Below, piece by piece: positions 27,250 to 30,559 of a stretch of 64,000 nt of DNA. The notes below the pieces were generated by a model. The model had not been told where the DNA came from. It did no database searches and saw only the letters and a list, made by a program, of their open reading frames with translations. How positions within the stretch are numbered: position 1 is the first letter of the stretch; the number at the start of each line of letters is the position of its first letter. The stretch comes from a virus: the IMG/VR virus record IMGVR_UViG_3300021373_003070. The stretch is one strand, 5' to 3'. The position numbers and the translations under genes are program-made.

Positions 27250-27430
27250 TTCACGTAAAGCTGTATTGAGTCAAGATAAATACCATTATATATGCCGATT
27301 GTATGACATAACACATTCCGGTATATTGAGAGAGTATGACACTGTATTGATTGCTGATAGAACACAACAATATGCAGAAGATTGCTGTGAGAATTTTGTA
27401 AATTATGTTGGTAGTTTCAATATTCGCTGA
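27188..27430 (+). CDS. Hypothetical protein
   Basis: 80-aa ORF ending YAEDCCENFV just before the tmRNA. Confidence 0.55.
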   Translation: MTKWQEHTKEVQISEFFAQDDSRKAVLSQDKYHYICRLYDITHSGILREYDTVLIADRTQQYAEDCCENFVNYVGSFNIR

Positions 27431-27752
27431 AGCTTGTAATAGGAAGTGCGGACGCGGGTTCGACTCCCGCCGCCTCCACCAAATGAACACTGTTGATCTA
27501 AAGAGTAGTCATTTTAGTCTACGATCAAGATCCCGGCCGCCGGGTATGTGGGTGGAAATCCGACACAGTGTTCATCTGATGGGGGCGTAATGGATTCGAC
27601 GGGCGACTGAAAGCAAGTGGAGAATCGTCAATGATGCTGACGTTAAACAGGGTCAAACAAAATAGTTGCAAACGATGACAACTACTACGGTGATTACGCA
27701 CTAGCTGCCTGATCCCGCGAGGCTCGCTCCCTCCTCGTCGCCCAACGGGAGC
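27426..27752 (+). ncRNA. ssrA: Circularly permuted (two-piece) tmRNA, tag ANDDNYYGDYALAA
   Basis: T-arm and CGCCTCC-A-CCA at 27454-27481 precede the 5' end GGGGGCG...GGATTCGAC at 27581; G3.U70 pair; tag frame 27668-27712; outer ends approximate. Confidence 0.92.
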
Positions 27753-27771: not shown

Positions 27772-28071
27772 ATGACACCAAAAAGTAAAGGCGATCCAAT
27801 GCAACGAGCATTAGGACGATTCAAACCAGATCGAAACTGGTATCCAGACGACTTCGATTGGTATCTCAAATGGGTTGCCTCGATTCTCGTTCTTATATCT
27901 CTAGCCATGCGTTCAGCTGGCATCGATTATCGTATGTACGATCTTGGCTTTGGTTTAGCTGGCATTGTTCTATGGACATGGGTATCTGTCATATGGAGAG
28001 ATCGAGCTCTTATCATGTTGAATTCAATCTCGGGCTTTATGTTAGCAGTTACTATTCTTAGGGAAATGTAA
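27772..28071 (+). CDS. Small multi-TM membrane protein
   Basis: DWYLKWVAS...W.DRALIMLN; three hydrophobic segments. Confidence 0.7.
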   Translation: MTPKSKGDPMQRALGRFKPDRNWYPDDFDWYLKWVASILVLISLAMRSAGIDYRMYDLGFGLAGIVLWTWVSVIWRDRALIMLNSISGFMLAVTILREM

Positions 28072-28799
28072 TGGCTCTGATTGCTGAAAATTATACACCT
28101 CTAAAATTATGGGCAACACCGATTGTCGAATACAATATCGAGTTTACTGAAGAAGAAAATCAGTTGATCGAAAAATTCAATGATGATGCTTTCATTGAAA
28201 AGCACAATGCTACGATCGACGGTCCAGAAAAAAACTTTAGATTGGCATGGATGGGTTACAACATATTGAATCGTAATCCTGAGTTTCAATCAATCGCAAA
28301 GACAGTCGTCGAATTATCATTTCACTATCTACGTGATGTCTGGAATCAGAATATACCTGATGACCTCGCTCTTACGATATCAGATTCATGGATTGTAAAG
28401 GTTGGAGGCGACAGCAACTTTAACGAACCAAATTACTTTAGAAATCACAATCATGCTGGTGCATTACTTACTGGCATCATCTATCTTGATGACAGCAGTC
28501 ATGGTACTGTCATTAAAAACCCACAGTATGATTTTCCTTTCTTTCCATTCGTATGGAAACCGCTCGTAGATGATCCATGGCGCAAATCCGAATACATCTC
28601 AGAATCAAAAAGAGGCAAGGTGCTCATCATGCCGGCCAAAACACATCACGAATTATTTCAAACTCCTGATGAATCCGACAGACGATCAACTATCATCTTT
28701 AATATATGGCCAACTGGTGTGATAAGTGCGCAAGCAGGTTCAGAGCTTGATGTTGAAGACTTTGCCAACTGTTATACTCAAGCTGATTTAGCCGACTAG
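28071..28799 (+). CDS. 2OG-Fe(II) oxygenase
   Basis: HNH...TGIIYL, LIMP...HH, R.TIIFN. Confidence 0.8.
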   Translation: MALIAENYTPLKLWATPIVEYNIEFTEEENQLIEKFNDDAFIEKHNATIDGPEKNFRLAWMGYNILNRNPEFQSIAKTVVELSFHYLRDVWNQNIPDDLALTISDSWIVKVGGDSNFNEPNYFRNHNHAGALLTGIIYLDDSSHGTVIKNPQYDFPFFPFVWKPLVDDPWRKSEYISESKRGKVLIMPAKTHHELFQTPDESDRRSTIIFNIWPTGVISAQAGSELDVEDFANCYTQADLAD

Positions 28800-28810
28800 T
28801 TACAAAAGCA

Positions 28811-28839
28811 TGTACATTCGTTTTGCAATGCTGTAGAAT
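28811..28839 (+). promoter_or_regulatory. Early promoter TGTACA-N17-TAGAAT
   Basis: Motif match plus TCAAATGGAG leader. Confidence 0.7.
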
Positions 28840-28866
28840 AGCATCTGTCAAATGGAGATATATACT

Positions 28867-29187
28867 ATGGGTATGATGTTCACTAACACACTTTCGTATG
28901 ACATGAATGGCCGTAAGCGTAAGGCCAAGAAAGCCAAAGGCGAGGTGTATGGCAAATACAAACCAGAATTCAAACCTTATGTGGCTAAGCCAAGTACACC
29001 TCGTCGCGACGAAGGTGTTACATATGCATCTGTACCACTGTCTGCCAACAATGCTCAGACACCACGTAAGGAGTCAATGAAGTACACTGGTACCTTGATT
29101 AAAGGTATCGCAACAATGCACAAGTCAAATGCTGTGCCAGTTATAGAGAAGTCTCACGCTGAAGACATCTCGAGGATGAGGAGATAA
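28867..29187 (+). CDS. Basic hypothetical protein
   Basis: YTGTLIKGIATMHKSNAVPV...DISRMRR; GGAG RBS. Confidence 0.7.
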   Translation: MGMMFTNTLSYDMNGRKRKAKKAKGEVYGKYKPEFKPYVAKPSTPRRDEGVTYASVPLSANNAQTPRKESMKYTGTLIKGIATMHKSNAVPVIEKSHAEDISRMRR

Positions 29188-29188
29188 A

Positions 29189-29497
29189 ATGAAGTACTTT
29201 GCAATCGCGCTGTTCATGATGGCATCATCACCAGCTTTTTCTGAAGATAGATTCGAAGACATTCGCGATAAGTGGAAGATGTGCACAACTTGTCATGGAG
29301 CTCAAGGTCAAGGTGGTATTGGACCAACACTTGCAGGTCAGTCTGCTGATGACATTATTGATAAGCTGTTGCATTATAAGGCAGGTCATCAACTTGGTTC
29401 ACAGTCCGCATTGATGATTCCATGGGCTCAACAATTAACTGAAGGACAGATCGGTACTTTCGGTGTATTTGTTCAAGAAGGATTTCCAGATCAGTGA
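29189..29497 (+). CDS. Monoheme class I cytochrome c (c553/c554-like)
   Basis: Signal peptide, CTTCH heme motif, GPTLAGQ, distal Met in SALM. Confidence 0.9.
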   Translation: MKYFAIALFMMASSPAFSEDRFEDIRDKWKMCTTCHGAQGQGGIGPTLAGQSADDIIDKLLHYKAGHQLGSQSALMIPWAQQLTEGQIGTFGVFVQEGFPDQ

Positions 29498-30019: not shown

Positions 30020-30095
30020 GCCGCTATAGCACAATTGATAGTGCATTCGCCTTGTAAGCGAAAGGTTCTTGGTTTGAGTCCAAGTAGCGGCACCA
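30020..30095 (+). tRNA. tRNA-Thr(UGU)
   Basis: GCCGCTA/TAGCGGC acceptor stem, TTCGC-CTTGTAA-GCGAA anticodon arm, encoded CCA; atypical T-loop TTTGAGT. Confidence 0.9.
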
Positions 30096-30159: not shown

Positions 30160-30492
30160 ATGAAAACATGTAAACATTGTGGTATAGATCTATCTACTGT
30201 CAAACATGAAGGTAGACAGTGTAAAACTTGTCGTAATGGATTGGCAAGATATGGTTTAAATCGCAAACAACAACAGGAGTTGTTAGAATCACAGAATCAT
30301 AAATGTGGTATTTGTGAACAAGAAGTAGAATTATTCGTGAATAATAATCAGGCAGGAGTAATTGATCATTGTCACGAAACAGGAAACGTTAGAGGGATAT
30401 TATGTGGACCATGCAATACAGTTTTAGGACGAATAGATATTGTTGGCCAACAAAAATTCTTATCTAACGTCGAAAAATATATTCCCGAGTAG
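30160..30492 (+). mobile_element. Endonuclease VII-family free-standing (homing) endonuclease
   Basis: CxxC pairs, YGL, Q...CGIC, IDHCHETG.VRGILC..CN..LG. Confidence 0.85.
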
Positions 30493-30559
30493 CTCAGTTG
30501 GTAGTAGCAATTGACTGTTAATCAATGGGTCGTAGGTTCGAGTCCTACCTCGGGAGCCA
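30483..30559 (+). tRNA. tRNA-Asn(GUU)
   Basis: TCCCGAG/CTCGGGA stem, ATTGA-CTGTTAA-TCAAT, GTAGG-TTCGAGT-CCTAC, CCA. Confidence 0.95.

What the first reader, a model, noticed from the sequence alone, without database searches (positions are those of the whole stretch)
27426..27752. Phage-encoded circularly permuted tmRNA with a gammaproteobacterial-type tag
Seen: the T-arm/CCA piece ends at 27481, upstream of the 5' strand GGGGGCG at 27581. The 7-bp acceptor stem has G3.U70. The tag is ANDDNYYGDYALAA, followed by a single H-type pseudoknot (CGAGG/CCTCG, GCTCCC/GGGAGC) with no room for pk3/pk4. Known: two-piece tmRNAs occur in alphaproteobacteria and some beta- and cyanobacteria, while AND(E/D)NY..ALAA tags are typical of one-piece gamma tmRNAs. 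Inference: an independent, minimized viral permutation used for ribosome rescue or to replace cleaved host tmRNA.
Basis: partly seen in the sequence, partly recalled or inferred. Interest (0 to 1): 0.8.

Follow-up and report, generated by a model that had tools for sequence, protein, structure and literature searches.

The report
Two-piece tmRNA gene in marine phage
An uncultured marine T4-like phage carries a real, conserved "back-to-front" (two-piece) gene for tmRNA, the RNA that frees stalled ribosomes; phage genes of this kind are already on record, so this is a new family member, and its claimed independent origin could not be shown.

Summary
ARAGORN and Infernal both call a circularly permuted tmRNA at 27416-27752(+): acceptor/T-arm piece ending in CCA at 27481, a 99-nt spacer, then GGGGGCG, pk1, the tag ANDDNYYGDYALAA, helix 5 and one pseudoknot (Rfam RF04321, 108 bits, E 4e-20). 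Twenty IMG/VR contigs carry the same gene; 13-16 of them share the upstream genes. Their spacers range from 11 to 150 nt, their helices covary, and the tag ends are conserved through synonymous changes. It is therefore not a misassembly and is under selection.

Phage two-piece tmRNAs are published (Buchholz 2022: HTVC008M, Melnitz, cyanophages, Stenotrophomonas phages) and annotated in GenBank, and this scan has met them often on other DNA. One post-tag pseudoknot is normal for beta-type and phage two-piece forms. ANDD/ANDE tags also occur on two-piece tmRNAs.

This family is not alpha-type (canonical T- and D-loops) and not cyano-type. It is weakly beta-like (RF01850, 60.8 bits against a cut-off of 84). 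It nests in no sampled bacterial clade, and its coding half scores best against one-piece phage tmRNAs. Trees and AU tests have no resolving power, so an independent permutation stays possible (about 0.3) but unshown.

Verdict: a new member of a known kind, of modest interest.

The parts
27416..27481 (+). Acceptor piece: the 3' strands of helix P2 (ATTC 27422-27425, CTTG 27433-27436, AGT-GC 27445-27449), then GGAC, the T-arm (27454-27470), the acceptor 3' strand CGCCTCC (27471-27477), discriminator A and an encoded CCA (27479-27481). The true 5' end is not mapped.
   Evidence: Sequence; RF04321 alignment; P2 duplexes predicted in all 13 members tested, with compensatory changes; the last 32 nt are identical in 116 IMG/VR contigs.
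27482..27580 (+). Intervening spacer of 99 nt, presumed to be removed during maturation. It is closed by the stem ATGAACACTGT / ACAGTGTTCAT and ends in TGAT just before G1.
   Evidence: Fold of 27475-27590: -39.5 kcal/mol, z -3.1. Spacer length runs from 11 to 150 nt across the family while the flanks are conserved. The window and L110 share this spacer, with one G-C to A-T compensatory change in the closing stem.
27581..27625 (+). 5' end of the coding piece: acceptor 5' strand GGGGGCG (G3 pairs with U70), D-loop analogue TAATGGATTCGAC, and the 5' strands of P2 ending in GAAT (27622-27625).
   Evidence: Sequence; invariant columns in alignments A1 and A3; P2 duplexes.
27626..27655 (+). Pseudoknot pk1: stem 1 is CGTC 27626-27629 / GACG 27639-27642. 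Stem 2 is TGAT 27632-27635 / GTCA 27652-27655; it is 5 bp (TGAAC/GTTCA) in most relatives.
   Evidence: Helices 1 and 2 of the counted structure are 80% and 93% paired, with one compensatory pair.
27663..27712 (+). Resume region and tag reading frame. The stem TAGTTG/CAACTA encloses the resume codon GCA (27668). Fourteen codons encode ANDDNYYGDYALAA, followed by stop TGA 27710-27712. Helix 5 (GATTA 27692-27696 / TGATC 27710-27714) holds the stop codon.
   Evidence: ARAGORN. Helices 3 and 4 have 5 compensatory pairs. Codons 1-3 and 11-14 vary only synonymously across 14 family sequences.
27717..27752 (+). The single post-tag H-type pseudoknot: stem 1 is CGAGG 27718-27722 / CCTCG 27733-27737 and stem 2 is GCTCCC 27726-27731 / GGGAGC 27747-27752. 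The loop is CGTCGCCCAAC. This is the probable 3' end of the coding piece.
   Evidence: Helices 5 and 6 are 98% and 100% paired, with 3 compensatory pairs in stem 2. The same motif occurs in one-piece phage tmRNAs, beta two-piece tmRNAs and HTVC008M.

Best explanation
This is a functional ssrA gene of the two-piece (circularly permuted) form, carried as an accessory gene by a lineage of uncultured marine T4-like (Kyanoviridae-like) phages.

Shown from sequence and comparison:
- The gene order is acceptor piece, spacer, coding piece.
- All tmRNA hallmarks are present.
- The two pieces can pair through the 7-bp acceptor stem and a long, covarying helix P2.
- The spacer is variable, which fits a segment that is discarded.
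- The ends of the tag are under purifying selection.

Inferred from established tmRNA biology (Caulobacter-type two-piece tmRNA, as described in the papers read):
- One precursor is transcribed.
- RNase P cuts 5' of G1 (27581), and 3' trimming exposes the encoded CCA at 27481.
- Host AlaRS charges the RNA through G3.U70, and host SmpB delivers it to ribosomes stalled on broken mRNAs.
- Translation resumes at GCA 27668 and appends ANDDNYYGDYALAA. Its ALAA end is a ClpXP-type degron, and its ANDDxY start resembles the SspB-binding part of gamma/beta-proteobacterial tags.

The likely benefit is extra ribosome-rescue capacity while infection degrades host mRNA. That step is speculative.

The gene belongs to the already reported class of phage-borne two-piece tmRNAs, in a subtype with canonical T- and D-loops and a beta-like build. 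Its evolutionary source is unresolved.
For: - ARAGORN calls tmRNA* with this tag.
- RF04321 scores 108.1 bits, E 4e-20.
- Twenty IMG/VR contigs carry the same tag type. Of these, 13-16 also share the genes just upstream. Contig L001 (160 kb) has a gp43 polymerase 78% identical to the window's.
- The structure counted on 15 sequences is 92% paired. Nine pairs carry compensatory changes, 0 of 500 shuffles reach the observed values, and slid controls give 26-52% pairing.
- An intermolecular P2 duplex is predicted in all 13 members tested, with covarying blocks: CAAG/CTTG, CAAA/TTTG, CAATAT/ATATTG, CATCG/CGATG; and GAAT/ATTC, GAAC/GTTC.
- Spacer length is 11-150 nt while the flanks are conserved.
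- Tag codons 1-3 and 11-14 change only synonymously, and all three stop codons are used.
- The context is a T4-like phage: gp43, gp44, gp41-like and gp46-like genes, all on one strand.
- Known phage examples were re-typed here: HTVC008M and Melnitz are alpha-type, S-SSM7 and S-CRM01 are cyano-type, and Stenotrophomonas phage Yut2 is beta-like with an ANDD... tag.
- Literature: Buchholz 2022, PMC9004378.
Against: - There are no transcript, end-mapping or tagging data, and the host is unknown.
- No SmpB gene was found in the 89%-complete relative, so function depends on compatibility with host SmpB and AlaRS.
- The window's own copy has no recognisable sigma-70 promoter on the + strand and no U-run terminator. 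The L001 subgroup has ATAAATA upstream and a U8 run downstream.
- pk1 stem 2 is only 4 bp, including a G.U pair, in the window.
- The gene is dispensable for the lineage: phage C48C1 has a homologue of the upstream gene (65% identity) but no tmRNA beside it.
Confidence: 0.85

Rival explanations
1. One reading: an independent permutation that arose inside phages from a one-piece, gamma-like tmRNA, separate from the alpha, beta and cyanobacterial events.
For: - A covariance model of the coding piece (R1) scores one-piece tmRNAs on other viral contigs highest: L020 84.5, L079 77.6, L054 and L057 67.9 bits.
- One-piece gammaproteobacterial tmRNAs reach 60 bits. L275 has tag ANDDNYDYALAA and a nearly identical tag/helix-5 region.
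- Bacterial two-piece forms score much lower: beta 27-37, alpha at most 32, cyano 16 bits.
- The T-loop, D-loop and encoded CCA are those of ordinary one-piece tmRNAs.
- No bacterial permuted clade sampled contains the family.
Against: - The scores are phenetic and come from a model trained on this family.
- Pairwise identity to every outgroup is flat at 45-65%, and Melnitz (two-piece) is the top outgroup at 64%.
- The ML backbone is unresolved. AU tests do not reject ANDD+beta (p 0.50), ANDD+alpha (p 0.47) or all permuted forms together (p 0.38).
- The one-piece carriers are probably different (huge?) phages. The three large contigs checked (L079, L054, L057; 121-178 kb, 36-44% complete) show no T4-like polymerase, and none of the one-piece loci shares the genes flanking the window's tmRNA. 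No in-lineage intermediate was seen.
- Other phages, including a cultured Stenotrophomonas phage, have the same beta-like permuted build. If there was a separate event, it is older and wider than this phage lineage.
Confidence: 0.3
2. The gene was captured from a host, or from the phage gene pool of a host group, that already has a beta-type two-piece tmRNA. This would mirror cyanophages carrying cyano-type and pelagiphages carrying alpha-type genes.
For: - Among the Rfam clan models, beta_tmRNA is the best for the whole family and aligns over essentially its full length. Scores are 60.8 for the window, 78.6 for L001 and 93.8 for L016, against a gathering score of 84.
- The architecture is the same: no 5' hairpin on the acceptor piece, a canonical T-arm, pk1, tag, helix 5 and one pseudoknot.
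- Known Kyanoviridae phages carry the type of their host lineage or of a former host.
- Two-piece Burkholderiales tmRNAs have ANDE/ANDD tags, and some encode CCA.
Against: - True beta two-piece tmRNAs score 155-313 bits on that model, while the window is below the cut-off.
- Their coding pieces score only 27-37 bits on R1.
- Features shared with beta also occur in alpha two-piece or one-piece forms, so they are not diagnostic. Examples are the spacer stem, the xGAU before G1 and the pk loop CCUUGUUAYCCAA.
- No close bacterial donor turned up in 151 Burkholderiales, 151 Gammaproteobacteria and 81 genomes of one family.
Confidence: 0.35
3. It descends from the alpha-type two-piece tmRNA of pelagimyophages and Melnitz, with later change of the tRNA-like domain.
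For: - Melnitz SsrA is the most similar outgroup by global identity (64%) and scores 59 bits on R1.
- The acceptor stem is the same (GGGGGCG/CGCCTCC), the spacer design is the same, and the tag ends in DYALAA.
- The phages are of the same broad group: gp43 is 48% identical to Melnitz and 44% to HTVC008M.
Against: - Melnitz and HTVC008M have the alpha-specific T-loop (GGGGGCAGTACCC, GGGTGCAATACCC) and D-loop (TAGG). Both were also seen in all alphaproteobacterial references printed.
- This family has TTCGACT and TGGATTCGAC, so both pieces would have had to be replaced.
- Rfam types Melnitz as alpha (106.7 bits). The window reaches only 53.6 bits on that model, over part of it.
Confidence: 0.08
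4. It is not a working tmRNA: a decaying pseudogene, an att-site remnant, a tRNA-like decoy that titrates SmpB, or an assembly artefact.
For: - No expression data exist.
- Fragments of tmRNA 3' ends are common in prophages, and the blastn hits are of that kind.
- A phage tmRNA consisting of the tRNA-like domain only (DS6A) is known.
Against: - Both halves are complete.
- Compensatory changes occur in six helices and in P2.
- Changes in the tag ends are synonymous only.
- The gene recurs in 20 contigs from many samples.
Confidence: 0.03

Closest known systems
SsrA of Methylophilales (OM43) phage Melnitz and Pelagibacter phage HTVC008M (Buchholz et al. 2022, PMC9004378; MZ577097.1, NC_020484.1)
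   Same: - A two-piece tmRNA gene in marine Kyanoviridae-type T4-like phages of heterotrophs.
- Acceptor piece first, then a stem-closed spacer ending in TGAT, then the coding piece with pk1, tag, helix 5 and one pseudoknot.
- The acceptor stem is identical to Melnitz's, and the Melnitz tag ends in DYALAA.
- No phage SmpB was found in the relative searched.
   Different: - Those are alpha-type: altered T-loop and D-loop, with RF01849 at 83.8 and 106.7 bits.
- This family has canonical loops.
- Melnitz has a glutamine riboswitch after the gene; none is present here.
- The coding piece is only 56-64% identical.
Annotated tmRNA of Stenotrophomonas phages of genus Menderavirus (e.g. Yut2 PV130723.1; Mendera, Moby and YB07 are listed as 'Permuted' in Buchholz Table S1)
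   Same: - A permuted tmRNA with a canonical T-loop in a phage of a host group that normally has one-piece tmRNA.
- beta_tmRNA is the best Rfam clan model (92.8 bits).
- The tag starts AANDDSY.
   Different: - It belongs to an unrelated phage group and sits in a tRNA cluster.
- The tag ends in RIAA.
- Its coding piece scores only 24 bits on this family's model.
Betaproteobacterial two-piece tmRNA (Rfam RF01850; Azonexus/Rhodocyclales type and a second Burkholderiales group)
   Same: - The overall build is the same, with a single post-tag pseudoknot.
- Both have a canonical T-arm and ANDE/ANDD...ALAA tags.
- The model aligns over its full length except its last hairpin.
   Different: - The window scores 60.8 bits, against a gathering score of 84 and 155-313 bits for true members.
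- The Azonexus type does not encode the final A of CCA.
- The bacterial genes have an extra terminator hairpin.
- Their coding pieces score only 27-37 bits on R1.
One-piece tmRNAs on uncultured viral contigs (IMG/VR; e.g. L020, L079, L054, L057)
   Same: - The last 32 nt are identical. This was the search criterion, so it carries no weight.
- They give the best covariance-model scores to the coding piece (68-85 bits).
- The pk2 motif is the same, and the tags are similar (ANDNYYYNEFALAA, ANNNNHYEYALAA).
   Different: - They have the standard gene order with four pseudoknots (332-372 nt).
- They lie on other phages, with no shared neighbouring genes. The three large contigs checked show no T4-like polymerase.

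Membership tests
tmRNA (SsrA), any form | tRNA-Ala-like domain: 7-bp acceptor stem with G3.U70, a T-arm, and a 3' CCA | tested here: met
   GGGGGCG 27581-27587 pairs with CGCCTCC 27471-27477, and G3 pairs with T27475. The T-arm is 27454-27470 and CCA is 27479-27481.
tmRNA (SsrA), any form | Internal tag reading frame without a start codon, beginning at an Ala resume codon after pk1 and ending in a hydrophobic ALAA-type degron plus a stop codon | tested here: met
   GCA at 27668, ANDDNYYGDYALAA, TGA at 27710. pk1 lies at 27626-27655. The tag ends are conserved through synonymous changes.
tmRNA (SsrA), any form | Works with SmpB and is charged by AlaRS | not testable with these tools
   No SmpB (PF01668) was found in the 160-kb, 89%-complete relative, so host SmpB is presumed.
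Permuted / two-piece tmRNA (Rfam RF04321) | The acceptor (3') piece is encoded upstream of the coding (5') piece, with an intervening segment, and the match exceeds the curated score | tested here: met
   108.1 bits against a gathering score of 47, over model positions 1-213. ARAGORN calls tmRNA*. Spacer length varies from 11 to 150 nt among relatives.
Permuted / two-piece tmRNA (Rfam RF04321) | The mature RNA consists of two base-paired pieces | tested here: inconclusive
   Pairing between the pieces (acceptor stem plus P2) is conserved with covariation, and the variable spacer fits excision. No RNA ends were mapped.
Alphaproteobacterial two-piece tmRNA (RF01849) | Alpha-specific shortened T-loop (GGGGGCGGTACCC type), D-loop TAGG, and a 5' hairpin on the acceptor piece, as seen in all the alpha references printed | tested here: not met
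   The window has TTCGACT and TGGATTCGAC and no 5' hairpin. RF01849 gives 53.6 bits, nominally above its gathering score of 50, but only over model positions 40-268 of 355, and it is outscored by beta_tmRNA.
Betaproteobacterial two-piece tmRNA (RF01850) | A match at or above the curated score of 84 bits | tested here: not met
   The window scores 60.8 bits, L001 78.6 and L005 64.1. Only the divergent member L016 reaches 93.8. True members score 155-313.
Cyanobacterial two-piece tmRNA (RF01851) | It is the best clan model at or above 70 bits, with a very short spacer and no encoded CCA | tested here: not met
   It is not the best clan model. CCA is encoded here. The Prochlorococcus reference scores 15.8 bits on R1, whereas cyanophages S-SSM7 and S-CRM01 do match RF01851.

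The most novel reading that the evidence does not exclude
The canonical-T-loop, beta-like two-piece tmRNAs found on phages could represent a fourth origin of tmRNA gene permutation. This group includes the present family, the L073/L027, L043/L091 and L041 types, and the Stenotrophomonas-phage gene. On this reading the permutation arose in phages from a one-piece gamma-like gene, was not inherited from the alpha, beta or cyanobacterial events, and could conceivably be the source of the patchy betaproteobacterial two-piece forms.
Probability: 0.25. Interest if true: 0.6.

Novelty: new member of a known kind. Interest (0 to 1): 0.3.

Why it matters
The finding adds a well-conserved, structurally validated family to the phage-encoded two-piece tmRNAs. 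At least 20 contigs carry it, most at the same place in the genome. It also shows that Kyanoviridae-like phages carry at least three structural types: alpha-like, cyano-like, and this canonical-loop, beta-like type.

That is useful for annotation, because the gene falls below the RF01850 cut-off and only the newer RF04321 model or ARAGORN catches it. It may also help host inference from the tag and the tRNA-like domain.

The wider question is how often tmRNA genes have been permuted and whether phages are a source. That question would matter to RNA evolution, but the present data cannot answer it.

Tried and rejected
- **blastn and megablast against 50,697 phage records.** No relative of the whole gene was found. 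The only hits were 48-nt 3'-end matches to prophage att remnants, plus one unrelated 281-nt hit to phage C48C1.
- **Genome-contig scan with the pk-loop pattern.** The hits were mostly chance. It yielded two true beta two-piece genes and usable genome handles.
- **ML tree of coding pieces.** It used 75 rows and 182 columns from a model-fitted alignment. The backbone was open, and the family came out as a central grade.
- **AU tests.** Nothing was rejected, not even 'all permuted forms form one clade'. The data have no power for this question.
- **Candidate diagnostic characters.** The spacer stem, the TGAT before G1 and the pk loop CCTTGTTAYCCAA turned out to be generic. They occur in alpha and beta two-piece forms and in one-piece phage tmRNAs.
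- **Search for an in-lineage one-piece intermediate.** The one-piece carriers share no neighbouring genes with the window. The three large ones checked have no T4-like polymerase. The bacterial MAG contig with the near-identical tag (G219:C169) shares no proteins with the window. Phage C48C1 has the upstream gene but no tmRNA.
- **Family-level search around the low-GC beta two-piece genome G073.** Five more two-piece genes were found, none closer (26.7-37.1 bits on R1).
- **Glutamine riboswitch as in Melnitz.** Absent here.
- **Model quality.** Model R1 was built with one helix (pk2 stem 2) one column out of register. The structure count was repeated with the correct register. The R1 bit scores are therefore slightly pessimistic for distant sequences.
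- **Unpublished genome.** One reference (L251, genome G034) comes from a genome flagged as unpublished.
Full report
**1. The observation**

- The T-arm is GCGGG/TTCGACT/CCCGC. It is followed by the acceptor 3' strand CGCCTCC, discriminator A and CCA ending at 27481.
- The 5' strand GGGGGCG begins 99 nt further on, at 27581. This gives a 7-bp acceptor stem with G3.U70.
- Translation would resume at GCA 27668. The tag is ANDDNYYGDYALAA, with stop TGA at 27710-27712.
- The pseudoknot is CGAGG/CCTCG plus GCTCCC/GGGAGC, at 27718-27752.

ARAGORN reports a permuted tmRNA with this tag. Infernal reports Rfam RF04321 (tmRNA_permuted) at 108.1 bits, E 4e-20, over the whole model.

**2. Context**

- All large ORFs of the window lie on the + strand, and GC content is about 40%.
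- The ORFs include a T4 gp43-type DNA polymerase (PHROG 262, E 4.6e-300), a gp44-type clamp loader, a DnaB/gp41-like helicase and an SbcC/gp46-like nuclease subunit.
- The polymerase is 44-49% identical to those of cyanomyoviruses, Melnitz, HTVC008M and phage C48C1, which are all Kyanoviridae.
- No host genome is held for this window.

The window is therefore part of an uncultured marine T4-like phage, roughly equidistant from the known groups.

**3. The family**

- The last 32 nt of the gene occur exactly in 116 IMG/VR contigs. ARAGORN finds a tmRNA in 84 of them: 50 standard and 34 permuted.
- Twenty carry a permuted gene with an ANDD[N/S/V]Y...ALAA tag.
- Of these, 13-16 share the upstream genes of the window at 40-80% protein identity: the 211-aa and 507-aa ORFs, several small ORFs, and (in 11) the clamp loader. 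Contig L001 (160 kb) has a polymerase 78% identical to the window's.
- The gene is thus a stable accessory gene of one phage lineage. Independent assemblies from many samples exclude a misassembly.
- It is dispensable. Phage C48C1 has a 65%-identical homologue of the upstream gene but no tmRNA next to it.

**4. Evidence for structure and selection**

- I counted a hand-drawn structure on 15 coding pieces: pk1, the stem around the resume codon, helix 5, and both stems of the post-tag pseudoknot.
  - It is 92% paired, and 9 pairs carry compensatory changes.
  - None of 500 shuffles reaches the observed values.
  - Slid controls give only 26-52% pairing.
- RNA duplex prediction between the 5' part of the acceptor piece and the region after the D-loop gives the same long interrupted helix (P2) in all 13 members tested. 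Blocks change in a compensatory way: CAAG/CTTG, CAAA/TTTG, CAATAT/ATATTG, CATCG/CGATG; and GAAT/ATTC, GAAC/GTTC.
- The segment between CCA and G1 is 11, 20, 55-60, 98-99 or 150 nt long in different members, while both flanks are conserved.
  - In the window, this segment with its immediate flanks (27475-27590) folds to -39.5 kcal/mol (z -3.1).
  - The window shares this spacer with L110, with one G-C to A-T compensatory change in the closing stem.
- In the tag, codons 1-3 and 11-14 vary only synonymously, residues 5 and 7-10 vary, and all three stop codons are used.

This is what a working two-piece tmRNA should look like. That the spacer is excised and two RNAs result is an inference from the known Caulobacter-type pathway. 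It was not tested here.

**5. Likely mechanism**

- The precursor would be cut 5' of G27581 by RNase P and trimmed back to CCA 27481.
- The two pieces would stay paired through the acceptor stem and P2.
- The RNA would be alanylated through G3.U70.
- Host SmpB would carry it to stalled ribosomes. No SmpB gene was found in the 89%-complete relative.
- The tag would end in the ClpXP-type ALAA degron. Its invariant ANDDxY start resembles the SspB-binding half of gamma/beta-proteobacterial tags (my background knowledge). This hints at a gamma- or beta-proteobacterial host.
- In the L001 subgroup, an ATAAATA motif (T4-late-like) lies 5 nt before the acceptor piece, and a U8 run directly follows pseudoknot stem 2. 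The window has neither, and the consensus scans found nothing on the + strand. Its transcription signals are therefore open.
- The benefit to the phage is speculative. Candidates are extra rescue capacity while host mRNA is degraded, or tagging for amino-acid recycling.

**6. Comparison with what is known**

- Phage two-piece tmRNAs are published. Buchholz et al. 2022 describe one in OM43 phage Melnitz. They report 53 ARAGORN-called two-piece tmRNAs among 18,146 phage genomes, 50 of them marine or aquatic. Their Table S1 lists cyanophages, pelagiphages, Caulobacter phages, Stenotrophomonas phages and others.
- The tmRNA database paper counts 79 bacteriophage sequences and speaks of three main bacterial permuted clades.
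- I re-typed representatives:
  - HTVC008M (tag ANFNEYALAA) and Melnitz (ANDNYVPVDYALAA) are alpha-type, at 83.8 and 106.7 bits on RF01849. Both have the alpha-specific T-loop and D-loop.
  - S-SSM7 and S-CRM01 are cyano-type.
  - Stenotrophomonas phage Yut2 has an annotated SsrA that is permuted. Its best clan model is beta_tmRNA at 92.8 bits, and its tag is (V)AANDDSYTVRIAA.
- 'A permuted tmRNA with an ANDD-type tag in a phage' therefore already exists in public records.
- A single post-tag pseudoknot is the normal build. It is not a special minimisation.
- The scan's earlier notes also show many such finds on other DNA.

**7. Which type is this one?**

- It is not alpha-type. Its T-loop TTCGACT and D-loop TGGATTCGAC are canonical, and it lacks the acceptor-piece hairpin seen in the alphaproteobacterial references.
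- It is not cyano-type.
- Among the Rfam clan models, beta_tmRNA is the best and aligns over its full length except its terminal hairpin. The scores are 60.8 bits for the window, 64-79 for close relatives, and 93.8 only for the divergent L016. The gathering score is 84, and true members score 155-313 bits.
- True beta two-piece genes were found in 4 of 151 Burkholderiales genomes and in 6 of 81 genomes of one family. None is close to this family.

**8. Was it an independent permutation?**

I built a covariance model (R1) of the coding piece, which is collinear in one-piece and two-piece genes. Its scores were:

| Comparator | R1 score (bits) |
|---|---|
| One-piece tmRNAs on other viral contigs | up to 84.5 |
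| L073-type permuted phage tmRNA | 66.6 |
| One-piece gammaproteobacterial tmRNAs | up to 60 |
| Melnitz | 59 |
| HTVC008M | 43 |
| Bacterial beta two-piece | 27-37 |
| Bacterial alpha two-piece | at most 32 |
| Stenotrophomonas phage Yut2 | 24 |
| Prochlorococcus (cyano two-piece) | 16 |

Three points weaken it.
- Global identities to every outgroup are flat at 45-65%, with Melnitz at the top.
- The ML tree has an open backbone.
- AU tests reject none of ANDD+beta (p 0.50), ANDD+alpha (p 0.47) or all permuted forms together (p 0.38). The last grouping contradicts the accepted view of separate alpha, beta and cyanobacterial clades with their own models. A test that cannot reject it has no power here.

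Characters I hoped would be diagnostic turned out to be generic: the stem-closed spacer, the xGAU before G1, and the pseudoknot loop CCUUGUUAYCCAA. No in-lineage one-piece intermediate was found.

My estimates for the origin are:
- capture from an unsampled beta-type source: about 0.35
- an independent phage-borne event: about 0.3
- descent from the alpha-type pelagimyophage gene: about 0.08
- the rest is unknown.

**9. Verdict**

This is a real, selected, phage-encoded two-piece tmRNA. It is a new family within a known kind. The claim of an independent origin is open rather than established. One comparator (L251, genome G034) comes from a genome flagged as unpublished, and nothing depends on it.

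Noticed in passing
L045:814-965 (and L096), spacer of the same tmRNA family; also L326:1283-1420 (Melnitz SsrA spacer): In L045 and L096, the 150-nt spacer between CCA and G1 carries AAAGGAG, then 7 nt, then ATG and an ORF of about 55 codons encoding a basic peptide. The Melnitz spacer likewise holds GGAG..ATG and a small ORF. The window's own spacer has no ORF. Earlier notes of this scan describe such spacer-borne genes in other phages.
   Followed up: partly
window 30020-30095 and 30483-30559: Two phage tRNA genes lie 2.3-2.8 kb downstream of the tmRNA: tRNA-Thr(UGU) and tRNA-Asn(GUU). Both were called by ARAGORN and by Rfam (70.6 and 64.6 bits).
   Followed up: no
window 27772-29497: The genes just downstream of the tmRNA are a DUF6552 protein (Pfam E 2.9e-15), a 242-aa putative 2OG-Fe(II) oxygenase at the Pfam cut-off (27.1 bits against 27), and a 102-aa ORF with weak cytochrome-c motifs.
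   Followed up: no
L006:2638-7583 (IMGVR_UViG_3300033405_000002, 332 kb): A huge-phage contig has a permuted tmRNA (tag ANAPKAMAAHA) followed by a tRNA cluster. The cluster includes two tRNAs with a CUA anticodon, which ARAGORN labels 'Pyl'. They are possible amber suppressors or a sign of stop-codon recoding.
   Followed up: no
L275:1501-1874 (genome G219, contig C169, 20.8 kb, GC 50%): A one-piece tmRNA in a gammaproteobacterial MAG has tag ANDDNYDYALAA. Its resume, tag and helix-5 region is almost identical to that of the phage family. It is flanked by tRNA-Thr, tRNA-Ala and tRNA-Pro. The contig shares no proteins with the window.
   Followed up: partly
L001:5331-5668 and relatives L004, L011, L045, L056: In this subgroup an ATAAATA motif (like a T4 late promoter) ends 5 nt before the acceptor piece. 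In most of these contigs, but not L056, a run of eight T follows pseudoknot stem 2, so the pseudoknot stem doubles as a terminator hairpin. The window's copy lacks both.
   Followed up: partly
L334:582-1067 (Stenotrophomonas phage Yut2, PV130723.1): The annotated tmRNA feature overlaps the annotated tRNA-Leu and tRNA-Thr by about 25 nt at each end. The deposited boundaries, which match ARAGORN's call, are too wide. The Rfam RF04321 match spans only locus positions 671-922.
   Followed up: no
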